Sequence record: MT944117.1
DNA from: Escherichia phage PNJ1809-36
Length of the DNA: 64,000 nucleotides
Strand: one strand, 5' to 3'
Made by a program: the position numbers and the translations under genes. Shown here piece after piece: positions 1 through 11,764 of this stretch. Position 1 is the stretch's first letter; each line of letters begins with the position of its first letter. Under the pieces are notes generated by a model. That model saw only the letters and a program-made list of their open reading frames with translations, was not told the origin of the DNA and ran no database searches.

Positions 1-160
1 GGAAGTCGCCGTAGGCTGAATCAATCTTACCTGTAATTGGGTTCTCTCGTGAACGAGGATCGTATTCTAATGTGATATGCGTTACACCAGGTAAAGTAAC
101 AAACTGACAACGGATGTTGACACGTGGTGCAATTGACACGCTAAACAGGCTGTTTGACAT
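1..160 (-). CDS. hypothetical protein, N-terminal part (gene runs off window start)
   Basis: ATG at 158-160 preceded by GGAGG on minus strand; open frame to position 1 (MSNSLFSVSIAPRVNIRCQF...). Confidence 0.4.
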   Translation of the reverse strand, partial: MSNSLFSVSIAPRVNIRCQFVTLPGVTHITLEYDPRSRENPITGKIDSAYGDF

Positions 161-307
161 TTAAACCTCCTCGTAGTAAGGCAAAGCTTTAATCAATTGT
201 TCTGAAGTACCATTCTCTATCCACGTAGCCCCGTTGTCAAGAGAAACATACCCTTTCTTATCGATAAATTTACGGAGACAGCCAGTGAACTTGTTTTTGT
301 AGATCAT
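161..307 (-). CDS. small hypothetical protein (48 aa)
   Basis: ATG at 307 overlaps stop of upstream gene (ATGA); stop abuts SD+ATG of next gene; MIYKNKFTGCLRKFIDKKGY... Confidence 0.4.
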   Translation of the reverse strand: MIYKNKFTGCLRKFIDKKGYVSLDNGATWIENGTSEQLIKALPYYEEV

Positions 308-747
308 TTCTTCTTTCCTTTCTTTAATTTGTTGTGACCTTTACCCTTATAAAGCTTGTGATTACGAGCAGACGGGTTATTTTGGTTCTCCAGTCGGCTA
401 ACAGGTGTATTCCAAAGGTTTCCTGCTACAAAAGATGCTGCCACAAGTTCTTCCAGGTATACAAAATCCAAAGCAGGTATCTTTGTTTCCCTCATCTCGC
501 GTTCTACATTAGACAACACGCCTTCTTCCTTACTATCTTCTTTTTCAATTACAGACCAACCCTCTTCCTGCCAAGCTTCCCCTCTGAACCAAGTTTCCAT
601 GTTATAACCTTGTTCGTCGAGAATAACACCATCTCGCATCTCAAACCATTCGCCACCACAAAAATGGCGGTGCTCAACACGTCTACCTTCCTTCATTGCT
701 TCTTTAGCTTCGAGCCAAGTCAGTTTGATGTTTTGGATGTTTTGCAT
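304..747 (-). CDS. DUF2829-like small protein (Tad2-like candidate) with Lys-rich C-terminal tail
   Basis: ORF 147 aa; SD AAGGAG upstream; N-terminal region WLEAKEAMKEGRRVEHRHF..GEWFEM...ETWF..EAWQEEGWSVIE resembles DUF2829 pattern (recalled, not searched). Confidence 0.45.
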   Translation of the reverse strand: MQNIQNIKLTWLEAKEAMKEGRRVEHRHFCGGEWFEMRDGVILDEQGYNMETWFRGEAWQEEGWSVIEKEDSKEEGVLSNVEREMRETKIPALDFVYLEELVAASFVAGNLWNTPVSRLENQNNPSARNHKLYKGKGHNKLKKGKKK

Positions 748-861
748 TTGTTTTCTCCTTTTGTTTGGTAGGAGTTGATCTTAACAAGATTAAAAAGTAT
801 GTCAATACTTGATCTGAAATTATTTTCAGGTATCATGTATGAACATTAACAAGAGAGGTAG

Positions 862-1155
862 ATGATGAACATTACTTTAGCAACTAAGAATATTTCTGAA
901 ACAATTAACGGTTTTGGTGTTATTGTAGCCTTGCACGGTAACAACGAGAAATGGTTGGCTTCTTTTGAAGAGGATCGTCAACACAATATCATTTTAGACG
1001 CTCCTATAAAAGTTATGCATATCCTTGGTGAAAACAAAGTGCTCACTTCCTCCCGTTCAAAGGAACAAATTACAAACGAATTAGTAAAACTGCTTGACAA
1101 TGTTCTTAACATGTTCGATAATGCACCTATCGACACAAAACGTGTCTTAATGTGA
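862..1155 (+). CDS. hypothetical protein (97 aa)
   Basis: ORF with SD AGAGAGG just upstream. Confidence 0.6.
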   Translation: MMNITLATKNISETINGFGVIVALHGNNEKWLASFEEDRQHNIILDAPIKVMHILGENKVLTSSRSKEQITNELVKLLDNVLNMFDNAPIDTKRVLM

Positions 1156-1167
1156 AAGGAGAATATA

Positions 1168-1659
1168 ATGGCTTACCCTGATTACATTGACGAACGTGCT
1201 ATGGGTTTCTTCCGTAACTTCTTGGTTGGTCGTTCTCACGGAGACAACGGTTCCAGTTATAAAACAAGCTGGGATAGTCAATGTGGCGCTAAGGCTACCA
1301 AAACTTTGAAAATGCCAGGTCGTCCGTTGTGCGCGTATTGTGGTAATGAAGCCTTAGCTCTTCAACCTGGTATTGAACATGGTGATTATACTATTAAAGG
1401 TTACACTTGTGTCTGCAAAGGTGCAATGGACGAGGCGGATTGGGTAAAAGAAAAAGCAGAGATGGAGGAACGCCATAAACGAGAAGTTTATGAAATGGAA
1501 AAACGTATGCCTGTTCCAGATTTGCAAGTTAAGAAAAATATTGTTGCGAAAATGATGGAAAAAGTCCAGAAAGCAGAGACGGAAGAAGACCTAAACCGTG
1601 CACTGGAAAACTTGCGTAATTTTAAAGAAGAAAAAGAGTTGCGCGAGATTATGTGGTAA
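1168..1659 (+). CDS. hypothetical protein, Cys-rich N-terminal region and charged helical C-terminus
   Basis: ORF 163 aa; SD AAAGGAG; CAYCGN...CVCKG cysteine pairs. Confidence 0.65.
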   Translation: MAYPDYIDERAMGFFRNFLVGRSHGDNGSSYKTSWDSQCGAKATKTLKMPGRPLCAYCGNEALALQPGIEHGDYTIKGYTCVCKGAMDEADWVKEKAEMEERHKREVYEMEKRMPVPDLQVKKNIVAKMMEKVQKAETEEDLNRALENLRNFKEEKELREIMW

Positions 1660-1696
1660 GGTATACTATTTCCATCAATTAAGAGAGGAGAACCAA

Positions 1697-1984
1697 ATGT
1701 ATTATTCACAAGATGAAGTAGCAAACATTAAACTGGCAGTGGGCGATCTTATTGTGTCACCTAACTACTATTGGGATAACACAGATTTGGTTGAAGTAGT
1801 AACCTATGTTGGAGTTGAAGGTATTGTGCTCTACACACTAGGTGGAGGTGTTGTTGGGGAAATGGAACGTTATACGACAACGAAGAAACTGGTAAGCTCT
1901 TATCACATGTTTTTACACCAAGGTTCGGAAGAGTATACAGCTTTCTTGTTGAAATTAGATGCAGATCGGGAGAAGGCACGATGA
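1697..1984 (+). CDS. hypothetical protein (95 aa)
   Basis: ATG 1697 after SD AGAGAGGAG; listed ORF 1598 start is an upstream alternative. Confidence 0.6.
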   Translation: MYYSQDEVANIKLAVGDLIVSPNYYWDNTDLVEVVTYVGVEGIVLYTLGGGVVGEMERYTTTKKLVSSYHMFLHQGSEEYTAFLLKLDADREKAR

Positions 1985-2337
1985 AAATTGTACACGATGA
2001 AATTCAAATAGAAGAAAGTGACCTGATGGATTTGGATGCAGCTTTGGGGAAGGTAATCTATGCAGGAATTAAAGCCTTCCGTGAGAAGGCAAACAATAGC
2101 ACGTTTGTCATGATCCCCACTAAACTGATGCGTGTTTTGTATCCAAATAGAAGTGCGCCGTATACAGATGAAGAAGAGGAGACAGGTAGAAGAGAGTGGT
2201 TAAATATTTTAGAAAAGATGGAGAATGCTTTTATTGATAGTGGTAATCCAGAAATCGTGTATGCTGAAGATCAAAGGAAGGCACGGTTAGAGGGCCGTCT
2301 TTTATTCGCTAGTTATTTTGATAATCTTTGGAGCTAA
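1981..2337 (+). CDS. hypothetical protein (118 aa)
   Basis: ORF; ATGA overlap with upstream stop. Confidence 0.6.
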   Translation: MKIVHDEIQIEESDLMDLDAALGKVIYAGIKAFREKANNSTFVMIPTKLMRVLYPNRSAPYTDEEEETGRREWLNILEKMENAFIDSGNPEIVYAEDQRKARLEGRLLFASYFDNLWS

Positions 2338-2339
2338 AT

Positions 2340-2516
2340 ATGTCTGAATTCTTCACAATGGCTTTCTTAGGGATCTATCTGATTATTAGTGCTGTTGGCT
2401 TAATCATGTCTCTAATAGAGGAAATGGGGATTAAGTGGAATTGTGCATTCGGTATAGCTCTTATGCTCACTCCAGTTTGGATTTACATTTGCAAATCGGT
2501 TGAACTAATTGGTTAA
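2340..2516 (+). CDS. small membrane protein (58 aa)
   Basis: internal ATG of listed ORF 2328; hydrophobic helix FLGIYLIISAVGLIMSLI. Confidence 0.5.
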   Translation: MSEFFTMAFLGIYLIISAVGLIMSLIEEMGIKWNCAFGIALMLTPVWIYICKSVELIG

Positions 2517-2526
2517 TGGAGGTAAT

Positions 2527-2865
2527 ATGTTTAGTAAAGAAATGAGAGAGGTAATCGCTACTCTGGTAGTTGATCATGGTGTTGAAGTTGAGCGTCACGT
2601 TTGGAAAGACGAGCCTCCTTTCTTTGATTTGGCATCACGGGCTAAAAGTCACATGTATCTCCTTGAAGATGATAAGGATTTTATTCTGCGTATGCGTTAT
2701 GATCGAGAGTTTAGAATTCCTCTTGACACAGATCCTGATGATGTAGTATTGTGGTTGGCAGAGCATTTCGCATTTAACGCTCTACATGGAAGAAGTTTTG
2801 GTAATGAACGTTGGGATACCATTTGTCGTAAACATAATATTGAACCAGAATACGGGAGTATGTAA
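2527..2865 (+). CDS. hypothetical protein (112 aa)
   Basis: ATG 2527 after SD GGAGG. Confidence 0.6.
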   Translation: MFSKEMREVIATLVVDHGVEVERHVWKDEPPFFDLASRAKSHMYLLEDDKDFILRMRYDREFRIPLDTDPDDVVLWLAEHFAFNALHGRSFGNERWDTICRKHNIEPEYGSM

Positions 2866-3116
2866 TGTTAAGTATCAAACCTAAAATGATTACTGAAGAT
2901 CAAAAAGATTACATTTATAAATGTGGTCGGGTGTGGAAAGAATACACTAAAGGTAATGAAGTTATTGTAGTTACGGAACATGCTATTTCTTTATCAGATC
3001 TTTTTGGTGATTATTTGCAAGTCATTAAAATTGGTATTGACAGAGGTTTGGTGCAGGTGTTAACATTATCCCAAGTTGAAGCAGAACACTTAGACAAAAT
3101 CATTGTCGAGTTCTAA
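2865..3116 (+). CDS. hypothetical protein (83 aa)
   Basis: ORF, start overlaps upstream stop. Confidence 0.55.
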   Translation: MLSIKPKMITEDQKDYIYKCGRVWKEYTKGNEVIVVTEHAISLSDLFGDYLQVIKIGIDRGLVQVLTLSQVEAEHLDKIIVEF

Positions 3117-3129
3117 GAGGAGAAAGAAT

Positions 3130-3294
3130 ATGATCTCTTTAGAATCAATAGCTTTTAAGAAAGGGTATACCGCAGGGTTCAAGTTTGGTATGTTTAATAA
3201 AGTAAATCCATATTGTCCAATGACACACAAAAAGGAATTCGAAGAATGGGAAGATGGATTTTCTAAAGGCTATCAGGCAAAAGGTTGGTTGTAA
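3130..3294 (+). CDS. hypothetical protein (54 aa)
   Basis: ATG 3130 after SD AAGAGGAG. Confidence 0.5.
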   Translation: MISLESIAFKKGYTAGFKFGMFNKVNPYCPMTHKKEFEEWEDGFSKGYQAKGWL

Positions 3295-3303
3295 GGAGAG
3301 AAT

Positions 3304-3468
3304 ATGATTTTAAACTTCATCATCAACTTGTGTTTGACATTGGGATTACTCTGTGCAATAGTATCCCCTCTGGTTGGTGAATATTGTTCTGAACTGGCGA
3401 TGTTTATAGTTCTTGGTGCGGCTATTGCTAATATGTTTATCGCTGCGATTTGTATGTTGTGGGAATAG
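3304..3468 (+). CDS. small membrane peptide (54 aa)
   Basis: SD AAGGAG + ATG 3304; two hydrophobic segments; below 60 aa so absent from ORF track. Confidence 0.45.
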   Translation: MILNFIINLCLTLGLLCAIVSPLVGEYCSELAMFIVLGAAIANMFIAAICMLWE

Positions 3469-3479
3469 GAGGGAAGTTT

Positions 3480-3836
3480 ATGAAAAAACTAATCTTAGCC
3501 ACATTGCTGGCTACCGTAAGCTTCACCACTTACGCTCAAAAATTTGTAGCAGTTAAAACGGATATTGGTAAAGATGTTGTGATCACAGGCAACAAATTTT
3601 ACTATACACCTGGGAATGGTGTTCTAGAAGAGTGCCAAGATGTTGAGGCATATACAGGAAAAGAAGATAACACGGAACGTCCTTTTTATTCGATTATAGC
3701 TACTTGCAAAAATGAAATAGTAGCTATTAAACAATACAAAGATGCCCCTGGAGGAGAGTACTTGTTAGTCAAGAATATTAAGAGTGAAAAAACTGCAAAG
3801 TTTACAGTAATTATTTTAAAAGGAGAAACGTTCTAA
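3480..3836 (+). CDS. secreted small protein with N-terminal signal peptide
   Basis: SD AGGAGGG + ATG 3480; MKKLILATLLATVSFTTYAQ signal-like N-terminus. Confidence 0.65.
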   Translation: MKKLILATLLATVSFTTYAQKFVAVKTDIGKDVVITGNKFYYTPGNGVLEECQDVEAYTGKEDNTERPFYSIIATCKNEIVAIKQYKDAPGGEYLLVKNIKSEKTAKFTVIILKGETF

Positions 3837-4975
3837 TGAAATACACTATTTTTGGAGATGTAGCTGTTGTAAATAAGGAATATGGCGTTGAAGCTAATAA
3901 ACTTCCTGCTGGAGTTTGGGTTGTCAACTGCGATCCGCACGGTAACTACTCTTTAGTGCGTGGCGAAAGTTTCTCTCTTCCGAACACTCTTTATGGGGAA
4001 ACTAAAGATCGCGCCGCACATGTTATTAAAACATTTGCTCGTCGTAGTAAAGAAGGTAAAAATACTGGGGTGTTACTGACAGGGACAAAAGGCAGTGGTA
4101 AGACGATGTTAGCTAAACTGATTAGCATGTCTCTAATGTCCACAGAAGGTTTAGGTATTCCAACCATTTTGGTTACACAGCCTTACACAGATGCTGGATT
4201 CTTAGAATTTATGAGTAAAATTACAGATCGTGCTGTTGTTTTATTTGACGAATTTGATAAAGTGTATGCTAAGAAAGAAGATCAGGAAGCACTGTTGACC
4301 TTGTTGGATGGAACAGGAAGTGGGAATAAACTTTACATCCTCACTAAAAATAGTGGTTATATCTCGGAATATTTTGTAAACCGTCCTAGTCGTATCTACT
4401 ACAGTTTCAATTACGATAAACTGTCTAGTGAAACTATGTTAGATTACTTGGATAAGAACTTGGTAAATAAAAAACACGTAGATAACTTCCAACGTTTATG
4501 GGATGTTAGCACAGAGTTGTCTTTCGATGTTATTCAAGGCATTGTAGAAGAATTGAATTTCTATCCAAAAATGACTTTTAAAGAATGTCTTGAAATGATG
4601 GGTATTTCTTTAGGCAATGATGCTAAATGGAATGTGGTTTCTATTGTAGCTAATGGCAAAACCTTGAAGGTGAATTGGATCAATAACTGGCACGACTTTA
4701 CCCCTACTAAGTTTTTGTCGGGTGCTTGTTCCTTGAACATCTATCTACAAAGCTTGAAAGATGATGAAGTGGAAGCAATGGAAACCAATAGTTATGTTAT
4801 CCTAGACGAAGATGGCGACCCACATATTGATCTATGTGCAACTGCTGATGGTCTAACTTGTGATCTGATTGAAGGTGGTAAGATCCTGGTGATGAGCACT
4901 ACACCAGGAAACACTCTGCGAGTGGTGCTGGAGCCTGTAACGCAGCGATCTACCACACTGGGTAGCGTATTCTGA
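3836..4975 (+). CDS. AAA+ family ATPase
   Basis: Walker A GTKGSGKT, Walker B VVLFDEFD, sensor ILTKN; 379 aa. Confidence 0.75.
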   Translation: MKYTIFGDVAVVNKEYGVEANKLPAGVWVVNCDPHGNYSLVRGESFSLPNTLYGETKDRAAHVIKTFARRSKEGKNTGVLLTGTKGSGKTMLAKLISMSLMSTEGLGIPTILVTQPYTDAGFLEFMSKITDRAVVLFDEFDKVYAKKEDQEALLTLLDGTGSGNKLYILTKNSGYISEYFVNRPSRIYYSFNYDKLSSETMLDYLDKNLVNKKHVDNFQRLWDVSTELSFDVIQGIVEELNFYPKMTFKECLEMMGISLGNDAKWNVVSIVANGKTLKVNWINNWHDFTPTKFLSGACSLNIYLQSLKDDEVEAMETNSYVILDEDGDPHIDLCATADGLTCDLIEGGKILVMSTTPGNTLRVVLEPVTQRSTTLGSVF

Positions 4976-4992
4976 TACAGCACAAATAGCTA

Positions 4993-5016
4993 AACCCGCT
5001 TCGGCGGGTTTTGTTA
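4993..5016 (+). terminator. rho-independent terminator (UUCG tetraloop)
   Basis: AACCCGC-TTCG-GCGGGTT followed by TTTGTT. Confidence 0.7.
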
Positions 5017-5044
5017 TATTGATTTCAGTTTAATAGGAAGAGAA

Positions 5045-6052
5045 TTGTTAGATATGCCAGTAAAGAAGAGTATTGAAACATATATGGAAGAATGTAAGCC
5101 GATAGCTGAGGCTAAAGGGATTACCATTCTCGGCACGTATGGAGAAGATAAAGGTGTGCATACGAAGATGATCAATCGTTGTGAGCATGGTCATGAATGG
5201 AATACTACAACGTTTCACAGTTTTAAAGATGGTCGAGGTTGTCCTAAGTGCGCCTACAGGGAACGTTCGAAAAAGAGAAGCAAAGCTATCACTATTCCAG
5301 ACCAGCAACACATACAAGATTTTATGAAGGTAGGTAAATTTAAGGAAGGCACTATTTTCACCAATACAGGAGAACGTAAAGGGTGTGATATAGTATGGAT
5401 GGTTGAATGTCCTGTTTGCTCTCATGATGAATATGTGGAAGCTGGGGTGTGTGATGGTAAATTCTATGCTACCGGAAGTCATCTTAAACGTGGGTGTCTC
5501 CCTTGCCGCTGTTCTACAAGTTACAAATACACAGAGGATCAGACCACCTATAGAACAAGAAAGGAAGTAGAAAGGAGAGGATATATATGGGTAGGATGGA
5601 TCGGTAAACCTTCAACAATGGGTAAGTTTAAATATGGATGTAAGGAGCACGGGGAACAGATAGGGCGTGCAGATGGTTTGCTACATAAGGGGAGTGGGTG
5701 TCCGCAGTGCGGGGGCCAAAACCAACAACAATGTTACATTAATCATATTTATGATGAAGATGGTATTCTTTGTGCACTGAAGTTTGGTATTGCCAATAGT
5801 AGTGATCGCCGTATCAAAGAACAGAATAGCCGCAATGTGTTTACTATGAGACAAGTTCAAGTGTGGCAGTTCCCCACTGTGAAGCAGTGCAAAAATTCAG
5901 AAAAGTATTGCAAAAAGGTGTTAGACACAGAAGCAGTGAGCAAATATGCTATGCCAGACGGCTACACAGAAACAGTGGAGCTATCTTGTCTGGCATCAAT
6001 ACAAAACATTTATAAACTTTATGGTGGAATATTACAGGAGGAAACATGTTAG
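5045..6052 (+). CDS. T5orf172/GIY-YIG-like domain protein with Cys-rich N-terminal repeats (homing-endonuclease-like)
   Basis: three GCPxC-type repeats; C-terminal KFGIANSSDRRIKEQNS resembles T5orf172 core; start may be TTG 5045 or ATG 5054. Confidence 0.55.
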   Translation: MLDMPVKKSIETYMEECKPIAEAKGITILGTYGEDKGVHTKMINRCEHGHEWNTTTFHSFKDGRGCPKCAYRERSKKRSKAITIPDQQHIQDFMKVGKFKEGTIFTNTGERKGCDIVWMVECPVCSHDEYVEAGVCDGKFYATGSHLKRGCLPCRCSTSYKYTEDQTTYRTRKEVERRGYIWVGWIGKPSTMGKFKYGCKEHGEQIGRADGLLHKGSGCPQCGGQNQQQCYINHIYDEDGILCALKFGIANSSDRRIKEQNSRNVFTMRQVQVWQFPTVKQCKNSEKYCKKVLDTEAVSKYAMPDGYTETVELSCLASIQNIYKLYGGILQEETC

Positions 6053-6411
6053 TTGACGTTCAAATTATGCGCAACGAAAGAATGGACTTCTTTGAAGCAG
6101 TAGAGAAACATCTGATCAGATGGGACTATGAATTTGTTCCTGCTGGATGTGGACCAGTAGAGCATTTAGCGGAAGACGATGATGTATACATGATCATTCG
6201 TCAAGTGTACCAGACAGACCAGTGTGAAGAAACTCCCGAACTGATTTTGTTTGAGTGTAAAGATCTTGCAAAATATTTTGACTATGGCGGAAAAGAGGGT
6301 CATAATCTCTCCAGATACAATAAACGTCTACTTATCTTAGACTACATGCGGAACAACAAACACAAACTCATCGACGCAGACGCAGTTTATGGCTACTGGT
6401 GGATGGATTAA
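6046..6411 (+). CDS. hypothetical protein (121 aa)
   Basis: SD CAGGAGG + ATG 6046. Confidence 0.6.
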   Translation: MLVDVQIMRNERMDFFEAVEKHLIRWDYEFVPAGCGPVEHLAEDDDVYMIIRQVYQTDQCEETPELILFECKDLAKYFDYGGKEGHNLSRYNKRLLILDYMRNNKHKLIDADAVYGYWWMD

Positions 6412-6424
6412 CAAAGGAGAAACT

Positions 6425-6613
6425 ATGGCACGTTTAGCAGATAACCCTGTATTCTACCCCGTTCTTGATCTTTATGATGAATTGACATATGTTGTGGAGC
6501 GGTATAATTACAATGAAGACCTCTTGGAGACAAACCTTAAAGTAGTTCTGATGAAAGCCTATCAGCAAGGGCAACGTGAAATTTTGGAGAGTATGAAAAA
6601 TGCGAATAACTGA
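6425..6613 (+). CDS. hypothetical protein (62 aa)
   Basis: ATG 6425 after SD AAAGGAG. Confidence 0.5.
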   Translation: MARLADNPVFYPVLDLYDELTYVVERYNYNEDLLETNLKVVLMKAYQQGQREILESMKNANN

Positions 6614-7142
6614 TGATTATGTATTCTTCTTTTCACATAAAGATGTTTTTAGTAATTGGTATATTGCACCCTTTACAGAAACCGAACCAAGTTACAATCA
6701 GACATTTAATTGTGTCGAACAATACATGATGTGGCGTAAAGCTTTGCTTTTTAATGATCACAACACTGCACAGGCTATTCTGACTCATAGCTTAAAACGA
6801 GAAGATGAGAAGATACAAGCTTATTACAAACGTATGGGTAGGGCAGTAGCAGGTTTCGATAACAAAATATGGGAAGAGAATCGTGAGCGTATTGTTATGC
6901 GAGGTTTATGCTTGAAGTATGTACAGAATCCAGACTTGTATGCCGATTTACGTCTATATCAATACAAAACATTTGTTGAAGCAAGTCCTTACGATAAGGT
7001 ATACGGAATTGGAATGGGGATGTATGAACCAGGGGTGCTAAACCCTGCCACCTGGAAAGGGCAGAATCTTTTAGGCAAATATCATAACAAACTGATCGAA
7101 ATACTTTTCCCAGACAAAATACCGCAAAGACGATATTTGTGA
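6600..7142 (+). CDS. NADAR-domain (YbiA/DUF1768-like) protein
   Basis: FSNWYIAPF, EQYMMWRKALLF, RMGRAV...W..NRE..VMRG...KY, YGIGMG...G.NLLGK blocks match the YbiA-family pattern. Confidence 0.75.
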   Translation: MRITDDYVFFFSHKDVFSNWYIAPFTETEPSYNQTFNCVEQYMMWRKALLFNDHNTAQAILTHSLKREDEKIQAYYKRMGRAVAGFDNKIWEENRERIVMRGLCLKYVQNPDLYADLRLYQYKTFVEASPYDKVYGIGMGMYEPGVLNPATWKGQNLLGKYHNKLIEILFPDKIPQRRYL

Positions 7143-7383
7143 TATTTTAACTTTTTTCATTTTTAGAACAAAGGTGTCACTTTGTAGCACAGAAATAAGG
7201 CTCCTACAGCACCGTAGAGAGCCTGTTATTTTGTCCTATACAAACCCTTATCTTTTTCAGTTTGCATCACTAGGATTCGATCTAAGTGGGTTCCTGAAGG
7301 TTTACCAATAAGATTAAAGGTTATCTCAAATTCCCACTACCTATTATCTCAAAAATCCCTCAAATTATTTAAACTTTTTAAGA

Positions 7384-7570
7384 ATTTACAAAAGTGAAAG
7401 TTGAAAACCAAAATTTAAAGTTTAGGAAAATTATCTTAAAATGTTAGATACAAAACAAAACTCAAAAGTCAAGGAAAATTTTAAAAATTTTGCGCGCCCA
7501 CAGTATTTAAAGTTTTTTTGCTTTTACAAAAATGAAAGTACAAAAGCAAAATTTAAAGTTTACAAAAATT
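7384..7570. repeat. two copies of a ~48-bp direct repeat (iteron-like)
   Basis: tttacaaaagtgaaagttgaaaaccaaaatttaaagtttaggaaaatt at ~7384 and a near-copy at ~7521. Confidence 0.7.
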
Positions 7571-7583
7571 TATGCAGATGGGA

Positions 7584-7698
7584 ATGAGAAGAGTTCTCAT
7601 ATGGAAATGCAAATGATAATGATTCGCATTTAGGTTTATAAATGAGATTGATTCTTATTTGATAAGGTAAATGATAATCATTCTCATTTAGAGAATGA
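7584..7698. promoter_or_regulatory. cluster of dyad-symmetric operator-like sites, Fur-box-like
   Basis: ATGAGAAgagTTCTCAT (7584-7600), AATGATAATGATTCGCATT (~7612), AATGATAATCATTCTCATT (~7669, 13-nt core identical to Fur box core AATGATAATCATT), CATTCTC-N5-GAGAATG (7679-7697). Confidence 0.4.
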
Positions 7699-7946
7699 CG
7701 CGCAGGGGCGGTGTTTGTCTCGCGCTCCCGTGTCCCCTCGCCATGTAATAAGAATAACAGATCCAGCCAGGAAAGCAAGCGATTATTTTATCTTTACATT
7801 TCTTTACAAATATATAGCGCCCAGCCTACCGGCGATCAACCTTCCAACCAGCGCCCTGGTATGTTAGCCCCGCCTTTACGCCGTGGGGTGGCGCTTCCTC
7901 TTCTGTATGTAAAACAGTATAAGCCCGATCCCTGGGCTTGTCAAGA

Positions 7947-8213
7947 TTATTTTTTGTTTTCTTGCCAGGAAAGGACACCTAACCAAAAATGCATATCGCC
8001 CCGCGCCCCTGGTGGGATCTTGCTTTCCCCGCCGCCACTGCAAGCCCATAAATAACCATCAGCAAACGGATCAAAATGGTCTATCTCTTCCACCTTATGA
8101 TCGCCCAGGTTGAGAACGGTTTCAACCTTTAAGCCCGTTGCGCTTGCTACCTGGTGCACCGTGCCGCCTTGCCAGCCCAATGAGTGCATAAGGTGTAATG
8201 TAGTATTTGTCAT
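7947..8213 (-). CDS. hypothetical protein (88 aa) inside a GC-rich island
   Basis: only clean ORF in 7700-8300; weak SD. Confidence 0.35.
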   Translation of the reverse strand: MTNTTLHLMHSLGWQGGTVHQVASATGLKVETVLNLGDHKVEEIDHFDPFADGYLWACSGGGESKIPPGARGDMHFWLGVLSWQENKK

Positions 8214-8322
8214 GGTGTCGCCCTTTCTTTGTTGTGCGCCCTGGTTGGCGCGGTAGAAAGATGATAGCCCTTTCTTTTATATATAGCAAGCAAAAAGAAA
8301 ATAAAAAAGATTGAAAAAGTGA

Positions 8323-8381
8323 TTGACGTTCGCCAGGTGGCGGCATAATATTTACCACGTAGGGCGGCAATGGTGCCGCTC
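8323..8381 (+). promoter_or_regulatory. early cassette promoter E1 with 5'-proximal stem-loop
   Basis: -35 TTGACG 8323-8328, -10 CATAAT/TAATAT ~8344-8351, stem-loop GGCGGCA-ATGG-TGCCGCT 8362-8379. Confidence 0.65.
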
Positions 8382-8400
8382 ATTATTTGGAGTTAAGATC

Positions 8401-8598
8401 ATGGCAACATTGCACATTGTGGCGAAAGCTGGACAAATCAACGTAATAGTAAACGGTTTTACTGAGTTCAGTCATCCCCAGGATGATCATGAAACGGTTT
8501 TATCTTTCATTGATTCACTGTTAGAAATGGGAGTAATTACAGAAGATCAGCATACTGCAAAATGCAAGCGCGTTAAGCAGATTGCAGGAATAGAATAA
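8401..8598 (+). CDS. hypothetical early protein (65 aa)
   Basis: ATG 8401 after SD GGAG; listed ORF 8323 start lies in promoter. Confidence 0.6.
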   Translation: MATLHIVAKAGQINVIVNGFTEFSHPQDDHETVLSFIDSLLEMGVITEDQHTAKCKRVKQIAGIE

Positions 8599-8603
8599 AA
8601 GTC

Positions 8604-8666
8604 TTGACAACAAGCCACAACCTGATAAGATGTATCACATAGGGCGGCGGAATGGTCCAGCCGCTC
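8604..8666 (+). promoter_or_regulatory. early cassette promoter E2 with 5'-proximal stem-loop
   Basis: -35 TTGACA 8604-8609, TGaTAAGAT ext -10 8623-8631, stem-loop GGCGGCGGA-ATGG-TCCAGCCGC 8642-8666. Confidence 0.65.
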
Positions 8667-8689
8667 ACAACAGAAGAGAGATTATAATC

Positions 8690-8962
8690 ATGGCATCATA
8701 TAGCGCAACAATGATCGTAGCTGGCACAACTGGTAAACCTATGAGCGGTGGCGGATCTTTCGCTAATATCAATATTGACGGGCGTTTATCCCTGGACGCA
8801 GCGATTGCCATTGCACGGGAAACATTTAAGAAAGAATGTAATTTCAACAAGCAAGATTATCTCGGTTTCGCTATTGAAAAAACCGCGCGCTTTGTTGATT
8901 ATAAAAGCCCGAAAATGGTTGATACTACACTAAAAGCGCAAGATGTAGCGTTTTTGCTTTAA
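8690..8962 (+). CDS. hypothetical early protein (90 aa)
   Basis: ATG 8690 after AGAAGAGAG SD-like leader. Confidence 0.6.
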   Translation: MASYSATMIVAGTTGKPMSGGGSFANINIDGRLSLDAAIAIARETFKKECNFNKQDYLGFAIEKTARFVDYKSPKMVDTTLKAQDVAFLL

Positions 8963-8965
8963 GGC

Positions 8966-9020
8966 TTGACATTAACGAATAATTTGTTAATATGTTACAT
9001 AAAGCGGGAATAGTTCCCGC
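8966..9020 (+). promoter_or_regulatory. early cassette promoter E3 with 5'-proximal stem-loop
   Basis: -35 TTGACA 8966-8971, TGtTAATAT 8985-8993, stem-loop GCGGGAA-TAG-TTCCCGC 9004-9020. Confidence 0.65.
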
Positions 9021-9038
9021 TATTTGTAAGGTGGTAGA

Positions 9039-9296
9039 ATGTTTTACATCAAATTAAAAGGTCACGTGATCGCGTTCAAAGATAACGCTTTTTACAGATT
9101 AGCAAAATATGCGTTAATACATCCCCACTATGTTTATATAAGGGGGCGTGATGAAATAAATATCTTTGATCAAACAACATGCGAGAACATCGAGATCCGC
9201 AAGGTTGGCGTACGTGATTATCGTACATCTTTCTACCCTTGCAAGGATTCAGCAAGTCTTTTTAAAGTATGCCAATTGTTGAAAAAAGGTGGTTAA
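9039..9296 (+). CDS. hypothetical early protein (85 aa)
   Basis: ORF; SD GGTGG. Confidence 0.6.
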   Translation: MFYIKLKGHVIAFKDNAFYRLAKYALIHPHYVYIRGRDEINIFDQTTCENIEIRKVGVRDYRTSFYPCKDSASLFKVCQLLKKGG

Positions 9297-9297
9297 T

Positions 9298-9855
9298 ATG
9301 GGCCGCGAATATGTGATCCAGTCTTGGGTAAAACATGAAGCAGATGATCCGCGCATCATTCCCGATCATCTTATCGATGAATCCACGGGATATAGCGGTG
9401 AGCAAATAGGTAACAGATTAGCACGTAGTAACGGCAACGTAAAAGCGCGTTATGTGCGCCCTGGCTGGCTGGCAAATGGTAACGCTGATTTATCCAGTGC
9501 GGAAGATGCGAGCGACGGCGCGAAAGATAATCCTTTGTACAAAGTTGATCCGGCTTTTCGTGTCCTGGATGAATACCCCAGCAAGATAGCGGCGCTTGAT
9601 GAAGCATTAGAAAGTAAGCGCATAACCTGGACCGCTTACAACATGGCAAAAAACGTACTTGATGGTAAATTGATTCAAGCCGAAAGAAAATTAGCCAAAA
9701 TTGCAGCCATAGCCCAGGAGGAAGACGAGGAGACAACGGAAGAGGAAGAGTACGAAGAGATCCCGCCGTTGTTGTGTATTGATGCTTTTCCTGATTATCA
9801 GCCGACAGAGGAAGAAAAAAGGATCGCACTAGAAAACTTTGAAAATAGTCTTTGA
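9298..9855 (+). CDS. hypothetical early protein with acidic C-terminus
   Basis: ATG 9298 after SD AAAGGTGG; listed 9289 start is GTG in same frame. Confidence 0.6.
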   Translation: MGREYVIQSWVKHEADDPRIIPDHLIDESTGYSGEQIGNRLARSNGNVKARYVRPGWLANGNADLSSAEDASDGAKDNPLYKVDPAFRVLDEYPSKIAALDEALESKRITWTAYNMAKNVLDGKLIQAERKLAKIAAIAQEEDEETTEEEEYEEIPPLLCIDAFPDYQPTEEEKRIALENFENSL

Positions 9856-9910
9856 CATATCGCCGCCACTGGTATAATATTTACCACGTAGGGCGGCAAT
9901 GGTGCCGCTC
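9852..9910 (+). promoter_or_regulatory. early cassette promoter E4 with 5'-proximal stem-loop
   Basis: -35 TTGACA 9852-9857, TGgTATAAT 9870-9878, stem-loop GGCGGCA-ATGG-TGCCGCT 9892-9909. Confidence 0.65.
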
Positions 9911-9937
9911 ATAGTGAAATTATGCAAGAGGTTTACA

Positions 9938-10033
9938 ATGATTAATAAAGAAAATAGCTTGACGGTTGGAACGATTAACGCTATCATTTTCGCCGTTCCA
10001 TTTTGGGTTGTAGTAGCGGCTATTATTTTCTAA
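9938..10033 (+). CDS. small hydrophobic peptide (31 aa)
   Basis: first ATG after E4 with SD AAGAGG; single hydrophobic helix. Confidence 0.4.
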   Translation: MINKENSLTVGTINAIIFAVPFWVVVAAIIF

Positions 10034-10041
10034 AAATATTC

Positions 10042-10102
10042 TTGACAACGTTTTTTAATCTGATAAGATGTATCACATAGGGCGGCGGAATACTTCCCCG
10101 CC
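10042..10102 (+). promoter_or_regulatory. early cassette promoter E5 with 5'-proximal stem-loop
   Basis: -35 TTGACA 10042-10047, TGaTAAGAT 10061-10069, stem-loop GGCGGCGGAA-TAC-TTCCCCGCC ~10080-10102. Confidence 0.65.
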
Positions 10103-10123
10103 AAAACAAAAAAGGGTAACACA

Positions 10124-10486
10124 ATGAGCAAGCAAATCAATACTATCATGTTTAATCTGGTATCTTTCCGCGATGATATGAAAAATTTACCACGTGAAAC
10201 GGTTGATATTCATGTTTCAGCTTATCGCGCCCTTATTGATATGTTACCGCTAAAACGTGATCAACATGCCGCTAATATGATGCTTAATGCTATGCTTAAA
10301 AAGATGATTCAAACGGATCTTACTCTGGCGTATGAGTATCAAGGGCGCTTATATGCTACTTACAACAAGGCGGTACCTGGTCTGGGAAGTACCGAAGAGT
10401 TGCACGGCTTAAACTTGGATCAGAACACTTGGGATAGTATGCGCCGCGTTATGGTATGGGCCGAAAGCGGTAAAATTTACGAATAA
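10124..10486 (+). CDS. hypothetical early protein (120 aa)
   Basis: ORF; SD AAAGGG. Confidence 0.65.
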   Translation: MSKQINTIMFNLVSFRDDMKNLPRETVDIHVSAYRALIDMLPLKRDQHAANMMLNAMLKKMIQTDLTLAYEYQGRLYATYNKAVPGLGSTEELHGLNLDQNTWDSMRRVMVWAESGKIYE

Positions 10487-10492
10487 AAACGG

Positions 10493-10552
10493 TTGACACT
10501 GTTTAAAATTCCGGTATAGTTTACCACATAGGGCGGGAAGTGGTTTCCCGCC
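10493..10552 (+). promoter_or_regulatory. early cassette promoter E6 with 5'-proximal stem-loop
   Basis: -35 TTGACA 10493-10498, -10 TATAGT 10515-10520, stem-loop GGCGGGAA-GTGGT-TTCCCGCC 10532-10552. Confidence 0.65.
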
Positions 10553-10574
10553 AACAATGAAAAAGGTTATCATC

Positions 10575-10940
10575 ATGGCTATTAATATTAATGTTTCCTC
10601 TTATGCTACCCTGGCTAACACGGCTAAAATTGAATTATCCAGCATTGAGGCGGTGCATATTAGCGCCCGTCGCTGGTTTCAACAGTCCTACGGTAACACA
10701 TATTTTTCTTTAATGGTTGACGTTGAGATCGGCGGTAAACTGATCGAGGTGGTTAACGTTCCGTTTCAATATGGCTATGGTGATCATTTTGATACCGTCG
10801 CCCTGGAAGAATTTAGCAAGGTTATCAACCTTGAGGGCAAGGAATTTTCACGCGGCGCGTATCTTTCCCGTTTTTGCCGTGACAATGGGATCACTGTATA
10901 CAGTCATGCAAGCGATGTTAAACGTAAAAAAGATCTATAA
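10575..10940 (+). CDS. hypothetical early protein (121 aa)
   Basis: ATG 10575 with SD AAAAGG; listed 10557 start abuts the hairpin with no SD. Confidence 0.6.
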   Translation: MAININVSSYATLANTAKIELSSIEAVHISARRWFQQSYGNTYFSLMVDVEIGGKLIEVVNVPFQYGYGDHFDTVALEEFSKVINLEGKEFSRGAYLSRFCRDNGITVYSHASDVKRKKDL

Positions 10941-10946
10941 AAAGCA

Positions 10947-11005
10947 TTGACAGCACGAATAAAAAGAGTAAACTGTATTACATAGAGAGCGGGAACACTT
11001 CCCGC
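10947..11005 (+). promoter_or_regulatory. early cassette promoter E7 with 5'-proximal stem-loop
   Basis: -35 TTGACA 10947-10952, -10 TAAACT 10969-10974, stem-loop GCGGGAA-CAC-TTCCCGC 10989-11005. Confidence 0.65.
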
Positions 11006-11029
11006 CTCACTGAAAAAGAGAGAAAAATC

Positions 11030-11269
11030 ATGGCTAAATCTAAAATGTACAACGGTCACAAAAACAAAACTCATTGGAATGTAAGCCTGTGGATTAATAA
11101 CGATGAGGGATTGTATCGGTTTGCATTGGGATTGATCAATGAGTGCGGTAATAAAGATCAGGCGGCTGATTTAATGTGCTACCGTTTGAAACAGGATGGA
11201 ATCACTACAACGCCAGACGGCTTTAAGTATAGTAAAACTGCAATCCGCGCCGCTATGGTTGGAATGTAA
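11030..11269 (+). CDS. hypothetical early protein (79 aa)
   Basis: ORF; SD AAGAGAG. Confidence 0.6.
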   Translation: MAKSKMYNGHKNKTHWNVSLWINNDEGLYRFALGLINECGNKDQAADLMCYRLKQDGITTTPDGFKYSKTAIRAAMVGM

Positions 11270-11282
11270 AGGAGACATAAAA

Positions 11283-11363
11283 ATGAAACATCGTTCGACC
11301 TATCTCACAAAACGTTTTAGCTTAGATCATAAATTGGGCTATTACGGAAGAAATAGAAAATAA
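11283..11363 (+). CDS. small basic peptide (26 aa)
   Basis: SD AAAGGAG + ATG 11283. Confidence 0.3.
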   Translation: MKHRSTYLTKRFSLDHKLGYYGRNRK

Positions 11364-11364
11364 T

Positions 11365-11424
11365 TTGACAACGTTTAAAATTAGTGTAAGATGTATCACA
11401 TAGGGCGGGAAGTGGTTTCCCGCC
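11365..11424 (+). promoter_or_regulatory. early cassette promoter E8 with 5'-proximal stem-loop
   Basis: -35 TTGACA 11365-11370, -10 TAAGAT 11387-11392, stem-loop GGCGGGAA-GTGGT-TTCCCGCC 11404-11424. Confidence 0.65.
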
Positions 11425-11446
11425 AACAACAGAGAGATTAAAGATT

Positions 11447-11674
11447 ATGGCTATCAATATTGTTCGTGTATCCGGCACCGTTGGCAGTTCCCAGGTTGTA
11501 GCAGTTGTAACAAACAAAAAGATTAATGATGTATGTGAGATCTTGAATAAGTGGGCTATTGCTAATTTTGGAGAATATGCGAGCGTCGAGTACATCGAAT
11601 CCTACCAGGTGCCAACCATCAGCCTAACCGATCTCAACGTTGATCGCCTGTTATGCCTGGATGAATTAATCTGA
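11447..11674 (+). CDS. hypothetical early protein (75 aa)
   Basis: ORF; leader AACAGAGAGATTAAAG. Confidence 0.6.
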   Translation: MAINIVRVSGTVGSSQVVAVVTNKKINDVCEILNKWAIANFGEYASVEYIESYQVPTISLTDLNVDRLLCLDELI

Positions 11675-11683
11675 AAAAGATTG

Positions 11684-11740: not shown

Positions 11741-11764
11741 CACAACAGAAGAGAGATTATCACG

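What the first reader, a model, noticed from the sequence alone, without database searches (positions are those of the whole stretch)
3836..4975. AAA+ ATPase in the early small-gene region
A 379-aa AAA+ protein with intact Walker A/B, sensor and Arg-finger-like residues and a C-terminal domain of unknown function sits among small early genes rather than in a replication or packaging module. Its role (remodelling of a host complex, anti-defence, or replication initiation) is not evident.
Basis: partly seen in the sequence, partly recalled or inferred. Interest (0 to 1): 0.4.

Follow-up and report, generated by a model that had tools for sequence, protein, structure and literature searches.

The report
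Uncharacterised classic-type AAA ATPase of large phages
This is a real, intact gene for an ATP-driven machine of the type that usually forms rings and remodels proteins; it belongs to a very large family found in big bacteriophages, none of whose members has been studied, so its target is unknown.

Summary
Window 3836-4975 (+) encodes a 379-aa protein with every AAA+ catalytic motif intact. The window is a phAPEC8-like Escherichia myovirus (Phapecoctavirus).

Sequence, profile and fold comparisons place the ATPase in the classic AAA clade (p97/Cdc48, Rix7/NVL, AFG2, Bcs1, Trip13). It is not in the clamp-loader, DnaA/DnaC/ORC or HslU/ClpX clades. Its N-terminal beta domain and C-terminal domain match no solved structure.

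The family is large: about 2,900 clusters at 50% identity, nearly all 345-415 aa, in large phages of Gram-negative, Gram-positive, actinobacterial and Bacteroidota hosts. I found no characterised member.

Three family-wide features are new here:
- The C-terminal domain is hypervariable but ends in a conserved hydrophobic/aromatic tail.
- The gene often sits inside tRNA gene arrays, though not in this phage.
- Two distant members lie immediately upstream of a canonical ClpP gene. This phage subfamily always also carries an HslV-like peptidase.

Most likely it is a standalone protein unfoldase or remodeller (confidence 0.6). The substrate is unknown. Coupling to a peptidase is the most interesting reading not excluded. 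Interest is moderate.

The parts
3836..4975 (+). ATPase coding sequence, 379 aa, 42.2 kDa, pI 5.15
   Evidence: ORF list; PHROG 2376 E = 2.6e-111; Pfam AAA PF00004 E = 8.7e-7; mass and pI
3820..3838 (+). Ribosome-binding site AAGGAG (3820-3825) and TAATG stop/start overlap with the upstream gene (3834-3838)
   Evidence: Sequence read directly
3836..4000 (+). N-terminal beta-rich domain (residues 1-55, five strands), conserved across the whole family with the pattern G...LPxGTYxV...L...P.K.YG
   Evidence: AF2 model, strands 3-6, 9-12, 18-20, 27-32, 38-42; alignments A1, A3, A4; no PDB sequence relative, best E = 0.59
4082..4105 (+). Walker A / P-loop GTKGSGKT (residues 83-90)
   Evidence: Invariant G83, K85, G86, G88, K89, T90 in A1; coordinates
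4175..4192 (+). Pore-loop-1 position between strand beta2 and helix alpha2 (TQPYTD, residues 114-119, aromatic Y117)
   Evidence: AF2 secondary structure. An aromatic is present here in 134/135 family representatives; canonical Ar-x-Gly in 89/135; this protein has Y-T-D
4235..4252 (+). Walker B VVLFDE (residues 134-139)
   Evidence: Invariant D138, E139
4301..4318 (+). LLDGTG motif (residues 156-161), aligned with LTEMDG of classic AAA proteins
   Evidence: Invariant D158, G159, G161; aligned to p97 'LTEMDG'; L[LFM]DG in 125/138 representatives
4337..4393 (+). Second region of homology: sensor-1 strand ILTKN (168-172) to the arginine pair RPSR (183-186)
   Evidence: Invariant T170, N172, R183, P184, R186; aligned to RPGR of Rix7, AFG2 and p97; family has RPGR 113/138 and RPSR 19/138
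4421..4609 (+). Four-helix lid (small AAA subdomain, residues 196-258), with SFDVIQ at the sensor-2 position and no conserved arginine
   Evidence: AF2 helices 198-208, 212-224, 230-242, 248-255; invariant F230, D231, Q234, E238, E239, L240, N241, Y243 and no invariant R/K
4610..4942 (+). C-terminal beta-rich domain (residues 259-369), acidic (net charge -9), hypervariable across the family, orphan fold
4943..4972 (+). Disordered C-terminal tail QRSTTLGSVF ending in hydrophobic-Phe
   Evidence: pLDDT < 50 for residues 370-379. Family-wide: last residue hydrophobic in 107/138; F/Y/W/L within the last four residues in 132/138; aromatic content 23% in the last 8 residues against 10% in the preceding 100
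4992..5021 (+). Terminator-like hairpin AAACCCGC-TTCG-GCGGGTTT followed by a T-rich tail, 17 nt after the stop codon
   Evidence: Consensus scan; sequence. Function as a terminator is inferred, not shown
3480..3836 (+). Upstream, translationally coupled gene for a small secreted protein (signal peptide MKKLILATLLATVSFTTYA|Q). Conserved next to the ATPase only within the genus
   Evidence: ORF list; neighbour comparison: same gene in L001 and L011, a different membrane protein in L012 and L014
48357..49049 (-). HslV-like / phage proteasome-homologue peptidase (230 aa, N-terminal M-TTIIAT). A candidate partner only; no interaction has been shown
   Evidence: ORF; annotated 'peptidase HslV family' in ETEC-TG; present in the same 106 Escherichia-phage records as the ATPase, but otherwise largely non-overlapping in distribution

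Best explanation
The gene encodes a standalone ATPase of the classic AAA clade.

Inferred mechanism, by analogy with solved classic AAA proteins:
- It assembles into a ring, probably a hexamer.
- ATP binds at subunit interfaces (Walker A/B) and is hydrolysed with the help of the neighbouring subunit's arginines R183 and R186.
- The energy is used to pull on or unfold a protein substrate through the central pore, using the loop that carries Y117.
- The conserved N-terminal beta domain would sit on the entry face and select the substrate or an adaptor.
- The acidic, lineage-specific C-terminal domain and the conserved hydrophobic/aromatic tail would contact a partner or the neighbouring subunit.

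In this phage it is the last gene of a rightward block of small genes, ahead of a terminator-like hairpin. That position suggests expression with the takeover genes.

Shown here: gene integrity, clade assignment, domain architecture, family size and conservation pattern.
Inferred only: ring formation, threading, a protein (not nucleic-acid) substrate, and timing of expression.
For: Clade assignment:
- Single-sequence search of solved structures: the best hits are Rix7, AFG2/SPATA5 and p97 D2, aligned from Walker A through RPSR/RPGR.
- Family-profile search: all 63 hits at E <= 1e-3 are classic-clade proteins (p97, NVL, Rix7, AFG2, VAT, PEX1); none is a clamp loader or initiator.
- Pfam: the best family is PF00004, above its cut-off.

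Motifs:
- Invariant Walker A/B, LDG, sensor-1 Asn, R183-P-x-R186, and no conserved arginine at the sensor-2 position.
- Across 138 representatives: RPGR 82%, RPSR 14%, L[LFM]DG 91%, pore-loop aromatic 99%, canonical Ar-x-Gly 66%.

Protein rather than nucleic-acid substrate:
- The protein is acidic (pI 5.15). The C-domain has net charge -9 and the N-domain -2. The family median for the C-region is -6.

Standalone:
- No protein neighbour is conserved; the best family occurs in 7 of 35 ATPase clusters.

Selection:
- About 2,946 clusters at E <= 1e-30 with uniform length.
- 99.7% identity among Phapecoctavirus isolates.
Against: - No experiment exists for any family member that I could find (literature searches).
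- In this protein and its enterobacterial relatives the pore loop keeps the aromatic residue but has lost the canonical glycine (Y-T-D), so threading may be weakened or altered.
- The short extra helix between beta2 and alpha2 that structurally defines the classic clade is not resolved in the model; the loop is about 7 residues shorter than in p97.
- Several smaller phages place the gene inside replication modules.
- One depositor reports an HHpred match to the T4 gp44 clamp loader.
- Oligomeric state was not modelled, because no multimer tool was available.
Confidence: 0.6

Rival explanations
1. Peptidase-coupled unfoldase (a special case of the best explanation). The ring docks through its conserved C-terminal tail onto a self-compartmentalised peptidase and feeds it unfolded substrates. 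The peptidase would be the phage's own HslV-like protein here, a phage ClpP in some jumbo phages, or the host's ClpP/HslV elsewhere. The phage would then own an ATP-dependent protease.
For: - Two family members only 35% identical to each other lie directly upstream of a canonical ClpP with an intact Ser-His-Asp triad: Atu_ph07 with a 72-nt gap and IMG/VR locus L061 with a 19-nt gap.
- This window encodes an HslV-like peptidase with an N-terminal Thr (48357-49049).
- The 106 Escherichia-phage records with the ATPase match in number the 106 with the peptidase.
- A conserved, disordered hydrophobic/aromatic extreme C-terminus on an otherwise hypervariable domain. From established knowledge, this is how proteasomal ATPases (HbYX) and HslU dock.
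- Fuchs et al. 2021 (PMC8665760) report that no AAA+ partner is known for the phage proteasome homologues.
Against: - Outside Stephanstirmvirinae the two distributions hardly overlap. The ATPase is in Enterococcus, Bacillus, Staphylococcus, Lactobacillus and Lactococcus phages; the HslV-like gene is in Vibrio, Caulobacter and Rhizobium phages.
- In this phage the two genes are about 44 kb apart on opposite strands.
- The reciprocal test is weak. Of the four loci fetched around ClpP, three are genuine phage loci (PA5oct, SCTP-2, Phosso) and none has the ATPase within 5 kb. The fourth record is bacterial contamination.
- Phosso lacks the pair although it is a relative of Atu_ph07.
- Known ClpP partners dock by IGF loops, not by C-termini.
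- The tail is not HbYX: the penultimate residue is mostly Ala, not Tyr.
Confidence: 0.15
2. Part of a translation / tRNA-maintenance module. The family acts on a protein of the translation or tRNA-processing apparatus, or on a host defence that attacks tRNAs, and is co-expressed with phage tRNAs.
For: - The gene is embedded in or next to tRNA arrays in unrelated isolates: Enterococcus A2 (24 tRNAs plus a tmRNA, gaps of 40 and 26 nt), Microbacterium Pumpernickel, Lactococcus phiL47 and GAP32.
- In 80 IMG/VR loci, 41 have tRNAs within 10 kb, all on the ATPase strand.
- After dereplication, 9 of 47 clusters are <= 60 nt from a tRNA.
- Within-locus control: 11/20 against 44/199 ORFs lie within 500 nt of a tRNA, Fisher p = 0.0026.
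- Adjacency occurs in 3 of the 5 deepest ATPase clades.
- The gene lies inside the array span in 9 of 12 clusters that have arrays of at least 5 tRNAs.
- RtcB ends 5 nt upstream in Corynebacterium PSonyx; RNase Z, peptidyl-tRNA hydrolase or RNA ligase lie nearby in other lineages.
Against: - This window has no tRNA gene at all in 64 kb, and neither paralogue clade of Stephanstirmvirinae shows the linkage.
- The accessory domains are acidic, so direct RNA binding is unlikely.
- tRNA arrays lie in the same accessory-gene regions of large phages, so part of the signal may be regional.
- The lineages are not fully independent, so the p-values are optimistic.
Confidence: 0.12
3. Replication or recombination accessory factor, for example a helicase loader, a clamp-loader-like protein, or a remodeller of replisome or recombinase complexes.
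For: - The gene sits inside replication modules in smaller phages: crAss cr113_1 (primase, RuvC, ATPase, exonuclease); Staphylococcus S-CoN_Ph15 (helicase, primase, RNase H, RecJ, ATPase, then two small ORFs, then resolvase); Acinetobacter nACB1 (ATPase, helicase, DNA polymerase); Bestia (primase/helicase, polymerase, ATPase).
- Weak profile hits to clamp-loader and DnaC-like PHROGs (E about 1e-4) and to Hda.
- A depositor's HHpred-based 'clamp loader small subunit' label.
Against: - The loader hits lie far below curated cut-offs (Hda 19 bits against 194.8) and cover only the P-loop core.
- No loader or initiator reaches E <= 1e-3 with the family profile.
- The SRC motif, the sensor-2 arginine, the collar domain and the initiator-specific insertion are all absent.
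- The protein is acidic, with no basic DNA-binding surface in the accessory domains.
- In this phage the gene is not in the replication module.
Confidence: 0.1
4. Trip13/Pch2-like anti-defence remodeller that dismantles HORMA-dependent CBASS signalling complexes of the host.
Against: - Only the AAA module aligns (212 of 379 residues); the N-domain is unrelated.
- No defence-system model matches convincingly (PADLOC best E = 5.5e-5, to mad8).
- The family spans phages of many phyla, which sits uneasily with a target as sporadic as HORMA-type CBASS (distribution; the sporadic occurrence of that system is my own knowledge, not tested here).
Confidence: 0.03

Closest known systems
Classic-clade AAA unfoldases/segregases (p97/Cdc48 D2, Rix7/NVL, AFG2/SPATA5, VAT, PEX1)
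   Same: They are the best sequence and profile matches. They share Walker A/B, the LDG motif, the sensor-1 Asn, the RPGR/RPSR arginine pair, the lack of a sensor-2 arginine, and an aromatic residue at pore loop 1.
   Different: This protein has a single AAA module of 379 aa rather than tandem D1-D2. The N-domain is a 55-residue beta domain unrelated to the double-psi barrel. There is an extra orphan C-terminal domain. The beta2-alpha2 region is shorter. In this protein the pore-loop glycine is lost.
Bcs1 and bacterial CBASS-associated Trip13 (single-ring classic AAA proteins with an N-terminal domain)
   Different: Only about 207-212 residues, the AAA module, superpose. There is no transmembrane anchor or Bcs1-specific domain, no HORMA partner gene, and sequence identity is 15-17%.
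Proteasomal ATPases PAN/Mpa/Rpt and HslU (peptidase-docking unfoldases)
   Same: All are ring unfoldases. This family also has a conserved hydrophobic/aromatic extreme C-terminus. Two members lie next to ClpP, and a phage HslV-like gene is in the same genome.
   Different: There is no coiled-coil/OB N-domain. The tail is mostly x-A-F rather than Hb-Y-X. HslU belongs to a different AAA+ clade, with a pre-sensor-1 hairpin and an I-domain that are absent here. No interaction has been shown.
T4 gp44 / RFC / gamma clamp-loader subunits and DnaC-type helicase loaders
   Same: They share the minimal AAA+ core, give weak profile hits (E about 1e-4), and the ATPase has a replication-module context in some small phages.
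   Different: There is no SRC motif, no sensor-2 arginine, no collar domain and no initiator-specific motif. All scores lie far below family cut-offs.
PHROG 2376 ('ATPase', category other)
   Same: Full-length match at E = 2.6e-111. This is the existing catalogue entry for the enterobacterial branch of the family.
   Different: The entry carries no function, and it covers only part of the roughly 2,900-cluster family found here.

Membership tests
Classic AAA clade (Pfam PF00004 type) | Walker A GxxxxGK[TS] and Walker B hhhhDE | tested here: met
   GTKGSGKT (83-90) and VVLFDE (134-139), invariant in A1. PF00004 scores 29.9 bits against a cut-off of 21.2.
Classic AAA clade (Pfam PF00004 type) | Second region of homology: sensor-1 Asn followed by two arginines (RPGR type) | tested here: met
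   T170-x-N172 and R183-P-S-R186 are invariant and align to RPGR of Rix7, AFG2 and p97. Across the family RPGR occurs in 113/138 and RPSR in 19/138.
Classic AAA clade (Pfam PF00004 type) | No sensor-2 arginine; a GAD-like motif at the start of lid helix 3 | tested here: met
   The sequence there is S229-F-D231-V-I-Q. There is no invariant Arg or Lys in the lid.
Classic AAA clade (Pfam PF00004 type) | Inter-subunit signalling 'DGF'-type motif after helix alpha3 | tested here: met
   LLDGTG (156-161) with D158 and G159 invariant. L[LFM]DG occurs in 125/138 representatives. It aligns to p97 'LTEMDG'.
Classic AAA clade (Pfam PF00004 type) | Pore loop 1 with aromatic-hydrophobic-Gly | tested here: inconclusive
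   The family has Ar-x-Gly in 89/135 and an aromatic only in 45/135. This protein has Y117-T-D, so the aromatic is kept and the glycine lost.
Classic AAA clade (Pfam PF00004 type) | Short helical insertion between beta2 and alpha2 | tested here: inconclusive
   The AF2 model shows beta2 at 110-113, then a 6-residue loop, then alpha2 at 120-128. No separate short helix is resolved.
Classic AAA clade (Pfam PF00004 type) | Closed ring, usually a hexamer, with ATP-dependent substrate remodelling | not testable with these tools
   No multimer prediction or biochemistry was available.
Clamp loaders (RFC / gamma / T4 gp44) | SRC arginine-finger motif, sensor-2 GDxR, and a C-terminal collar domain | tested here: not met
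Initiator / helicase-loader clade (DnaA, DnaC, Hda, Orc/Cdc6) | Initiator-specific helical insertion in alpha2, a sensor-2 arginine, and a profile score above the family cut-off | tested here: not met
HslU/ClpX-type (HCLR clade) unfoldases | Pre-sensor-1 beta-hairpin, a sensor-2 arginine, and an IGF loop or I-domain | tested here: not met
Proteasomal ATPases (PAN/Mpa/Rpt) | N-terminal coiled coil plus OB ring; C-terminal HbYX (penultimate Tyr) | tested here: not met
   The N-domain is about 55 residues of beta strands with no coiled coil. At position -2 Ala occurs in 42/138 and Leu in 26/138; Tyr is not among the six commonest residues there. PAN models score 15 bits against cut-offs of 500-750.
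Trip13/Pch2 | Trip13-type N-terminal domain and a HORMA-domain partner | tested here: not met
PHROG 2376 (phage 'ATPase') | Full-length profile match | tested here: met
   E = 2.6e-111, residues 1-372 on profile positions 1-358 of 363.

The most novel reading that the evidence does not exclude
The family is the missing AAA+ unfoldase partner of self-compartmentalised peptidases in phage infection. Its conserved C-terminal hydrophobic/aromatic tail docks onto a peptidase ring. In this phage that would be the phage-encoded HslV-like proteasome homologue at 48357-49049. In Atu_ph07 and locus L061 it would be the phage ClpP. Elsewhere it would be the host's ClpP or HslV. Large phages would then run their own ATP-dependent protease to clear chosen host proteins.
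Probability: 0.13. Interest if true: 0.75.

Novelty: new variant of a known kind. Interest (0 to 1): 0.42.

Why it matters
AAA+ unfoldases are central regulators of protein fate, yet almost nothing is known about phage-encoded ones outside replication and packaging.

This gene represents a family of about 2,900 sequence clusters, conserved in large phages that infect at least four bacterial phyla, and no member has been studied. A function assigned to one member would annotate thousands of genes.

Three leads found here make the question testable:
- a conserved C-terminal tail;
- embedding in tRNA arrays;
- occasional pairing with ClpP, and co-occurrence with a phage proteasome homologue for which the literature reports no AAA+ partner.

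If the peptidase link were true, it would be a virus-owned ATP-dependent protease. If the tRNA link were true, it would point to an unknown protein-remodelling step in phage control of translation.

Tried and rejected
- **HslV partnership as a family-wide rule.** Rejected. tblastn distributions overlap only in Stephanstirmvirinae. A phiKZ-like phage with HslV lacks this ATPase.
- **A conserved protein partner by neighbour clustering.** None found; the best family is in 7 of 35 clusters. Recurrent neighbours are generic auxiliary genes: metallophosphoesterase, NadR-like, 5'-3' exonuclease, SPFH, HNH, PhoH, DUF2828/DUF7788.
- **Reciprocal ClpP test.** PA5oct, SCTP-2 and Phosso have ClpP without the ATPase within 5 kb. 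The 'Acinetobacter phage MD-2021a' record is a bacterial tig-clpP-clpX fragment.
- **N-domain profile against PDB.** Nothing significant.
- **Defence-system models (PADLOC).** Only weak P-loop-level hits.
- **Coupling to the upstream signal-peptide gene.** Conserved only within the genus.
- **Literature.** Seven searches found no functional study. The Avs2 paper concerns an unrelated small protein, Ksap2.
- **Structured RNA near the gene.** Rfam gave no hit in 1-14000, and there is no tRNA in the window.
- **AFDB50 fold search.** Unavailable.
Full report
**1. The observation**

The window is a phAPEC8-like Escherichia myovirus (Phapecoctavirus, Stephanstirmvirinae). It is 99% identical to phage ETEC-TG over 3000-6100.

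The ORF is exactly as described: 3836..4975, + strand, ATG start, 379 aa. It has an AAGGAG ribosome-binding site at 3820-3825. Its start overlaps the stop of the upstream gene by one base (TAATG). A terminator-like hairpin (AAACCCGC-TTCG-GCGGGTTT plus a T-rich tail) begins 17 nt after the stop codon.

The gene is real. It matches PHROG 2376 over its full length (E = 2.6e-111). It has 736 homologues in the word-indexed search. It is 99.7% identical among sister phages. Depositors call it 'ATPase', 'FtsH-like protease', 'regulatory inactivator' or 'hypothetical protein'.

**2. Anatomy**

An AlphaFold2 model built from a 39-sequence alignment has mean pLDDT 85. It shows four regions:
- an N-terminal five-stranded beta domain (residues 1-55);
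- an AAA+ alpha/beta subdomain (56-195) with a four-helix lid (196-258);
- a beta-rich C-terminal domain (259-369);
- a disordered tail (370-379).

The invariant residues in the alignment are the catalytic set:
- Walker A: G83, K85, G86, G88, K89, T90.
- Walker B: D138, E139.
- D158, G159, G161 in LLDGTG.
- Sensor-1: T170, N172.
- R183-P184-x-R186.
- A lid motif F230, D231, Q234, E238, E239, L240, N241, Y243, with no conserved arginine.

The loop between strand beta2 and helix alpha2, the pore-loop-1 position, carries Y117.

**3. Which AAA+ clade**

Four independent comparisons agree on the classic AAA clade.
- Single-sequence search of solved structures: the best hits are Rix7, AFG2/SPATA5 and p97 D2. 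The alignments run from Walker A to RPSR/RPGR.
- Family-profile search: all 63 sequences at E <= 1e-3 are classic-clade proteins. No clamp loader, DnaA/DnaC or ORC protein is among them.
- Motifs: distant family members read literally RPGR(F/I), which is the classic SRH signature. They also have pore loops such as WFG, WCG, YPG and YFG.

Across 138 representatives:

| Feature | Frequency |
|---|---|
| RPGR | 82% |
| RPSR | 14% |
| L[LFM]DG | 91% |
| Aromatic at the pore loop | 99% |
| Canonical Ar-x-Gly | 66% |

Weak hits to clamp-loader and DnaC-like PHROGs and to Hda lie far below curated cut-offs. They cover only the P-loop core.

There are three caveats:
- The short beta2-alpha2 helix typical of the clade is not resolved in the model.
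- This protein has lost the pore-loop glycine.

**4. The accessory domains**

The N-domain profile finds nothing in the PDB.

The protein is acidic: pI 5.15, C-domain net charge -9, N-domain -2. The family median for the C-region is -6. This argues against direct DNA or RNA binding by these domains.

**5. The family**

An exhaustive profile search of 1.84 billion representatives gives 2,946 clusters at E <= 1e-30 and 3,785 at E <= 1e-10. Nearly all are 345-415 aa.

Among sequenced phages the family occurs in the following groups:
- Stephanstirmvirinae, with two paralogues in Justusliebigvirus.
- GAP32-like jumbo phages.
- Grimontviridae.
- Herelleviridae of Bacillus, Enterococcus and Lactobacillus.
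- Staphylococcus 6ec-like phages.
- Lactococcus 949-group phages.
- Actinophages.
- Agrobacterium Atu_ph07.
- N4-like Acinetobacter phages.
- crAss-like phages, which carry a short form without the C-domain.

I found no functional study of any member.

**6. A conserved C-terminal tail**

The C-domain is hypervariable in sequence and length, yet the extreme C-terminus is conserved in character. Examples are ...LGSVF...SRIF...YNYFDAF...FFDRDAF...DYSALAL and ...MFDGK.

In 138 representatives:
- the last residue is hydrophobic in 78% (F 47, L 28, V 14);
- F/Y/W/L occurs within the last four residues in 96%;
- aromatic content is 23% in the last eight residues, against 10% in the preceding hundred.

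The tail is disordered in the model. From established knowledge, such tails serve as docking peptides (HbYX of proteasomal ATPases, the HslU C-terminus), as inter-subunit latches, or as degrons. Which applies here was not tested.

**7. Genomic context**

No protein neighbour is conserved; the best family occurs in 7 of 35 clusters. Three context classes recur.

*(a) tRNA arrays.*
- The gene is embedded in arrays in Enterococcus phage A2: 24 tRNAs plus a tmRNA, with gaps of 40 and 26 nt.
- The same holds in Microbacterium Pumpernickel and Lactococcus phiL47, and it lies near tRNAs in GAP32.
- In 80 IMG/VR loci, 41 carry tRNAs within 10 kb, all on the ATPase strand.
- After dereplication, 9 of 47 clusters are <= 60 nt from a tRNA.
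- Against other ORFs of the same loci the enrichment is 11/20 against 44/199 within 500 nt (p = 0.0026).
- Adjacency occurs in 3 of the 5 deepest clades.
- RtcB, RNase Z, peptidyl-tRNA hydrolase or RNA ligase lie nearby in several lineages.
- This window, however, has no tRNA gene. Its clade shows no such linkage.

*(b) Replication modules.* This is the context in smaller phages: crAss, Staphylococcus, and Acinetobacter nACB1 and Bestia.

*(c) Peptidases.*
- Two members only 35% identical to each other lie 72 and 19 nt upstream of canonical ClpP genes.
- This window encodes an HslV-like peptidase at 48357-49049. The 106 Escherichia-phage records that carry it match in number the 106 that carry the ATPase.
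- The peptidase link is not general. The HslV-like and ATPase distributions otherwise barely overlap.
- Three other phage ClpP loci lack the ATPase.
- Fuchs et al. 2021 found no AAA+ partner for phage proteasome homologues.

**8. Interpretation**

The best-supported reading is a standalone classic-clade AAA protein remodeller or unfoldase. Its substrate would be selected by the conserved N-domain. Its lineage-specific C-domain and tail would contact a partner. My confidence is 0.6.

Peptidase coupling (0.15) and a role in the translation/tRNA module (0.12) are special cases, each with some support. A replication-loader role (0.1) is disfavoured by motifs, profiles and charge, although the context in small phages keeps it alive. 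A Trip13-like anti-CBASS role (0.03) rests on generic fold similarity only.

**9. Novelty and score**

The AAA module is a known kind, and the gene is already catalogued as 'ATPase'. The family's architecture is what is new: orphan N- and C-domains plus a conserved tail. So are its size, its contexts and the lack of any characterised member. Together these make it a new variant of a known kind.

The finding is sound and moderately interesting. It is a good experimental target but not a surprise in itself.

Noticed in passing
window 48357-49049 (-): HslV-like / phage proteasome-homologue peptidase: 230 aa, N-terminal M-TTIIAT, with an acidic C-terminal extension. The literature reports no AAA+ partner for such phage homologues (PMC8665760).
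   Followed up: partly
window 8342-13932 (+): At least seven copies of a promoter-plus-hairpin cassette (TTGACA-N17-TAAGAT/TAAACT...GGGCGG-loop-CCGCC), each in front of a small ORF. The ATPase block upstream of 8.3 kb lacks them.
   Followed up: partly
window 5045-6052 (+): The gene annotated 'endonuclease' has a CapR-homology domain and a treble-clef zinc finger. It is present downstream of the ATPase in some relatives and absent in others, so it looks like a mobile insertion.
   Followed up: partly
window 6600-7142 (+): NADAR-domain protein (Pfam E = 4e-36), two genes downstream of the ATPase. From my own knowledge it may be a counter-defence gene against DNA ADP-ribosylation; this was not tested.
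   Followed up: no
window 7361-7570 (+): Two tandem copies of an AT-rich 72-nt repeat, 138 nt apart and 82% identical, in an ORF-poor stretch (about 7.15-8.3 kb). There is no Rfam hit.
   Followed up: no
L008 (Enterococcus phage vB_EfaM_A2) 3409-12328: An unannotated array of 24 tRNAs plus a phage tmRNA (tag peptide AKNEELLAVA). The ATPase homologue is the only large ORF inside it.
   Followed up: partly
L091 (Agrobacterium phage Atu_ph07) 3529-6739; L061 9929-11620: ATPase-ClpP gene pairs with gaps of 72 and 19 nt in two distant family members. In Atu_ph07 a peptidyl-tRNA hydrolase lies just upstream.
   Followed up: partly
L094 (Corynebacterium phage PSonyx) 3784-6053; L009 (Pumpernickel) 8715-9953: An RtcB-like RNA ligase ends 5 nt before the ATPase in PSonyx. 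RtcB also lies in the same tRNA array as the ATPase in Pumpernickel.
   Followed up: partly
L021/L022 (Justusliebigvirus) 7681-11158: The second ATPase paralogue of the sister genus sits directly downstream of ORFs that look like the anaerobic ribonucleotide reductase genes nrdD and nrdG. I identified them by eye from sequence motifs, not with a tool.
   Followed up: no
L099 (Pseudomonas phage PA5oct) 1-5636: The jumbo-phage ClpP lies about 3.5 kb downstream of a phage FtsH-like AAA protein. This is a different possible phage unfoldase-peptidase pairing.
   Followed up: no
L101 (record 'Acinetobacter phage MD-2021a', CAKLQH020000005.1): This contig carries tig-clpP-clpX and a TonB-dependent receptor gene. 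It looks like bacterial chromosome, not phage.
   Followed up: no
one search hit list (MG065650, MG065645 and others): Several records named 'Campylobacter phage' and one named 'Acinetobacter phage' are about 91-92% identical to this E. coli phage over the 3.1-kb query (window 3000-6100). The host labels are probably unreliable.
   Followed up: no
L080 5058-6473, L031, L046: A DUF2828/DUF7788 protein of about 465 aa recurs just downstream of the ATPase in four ATPase clusters, inside the tRNA-array span in the three loci cited here.
   Followed up: partly
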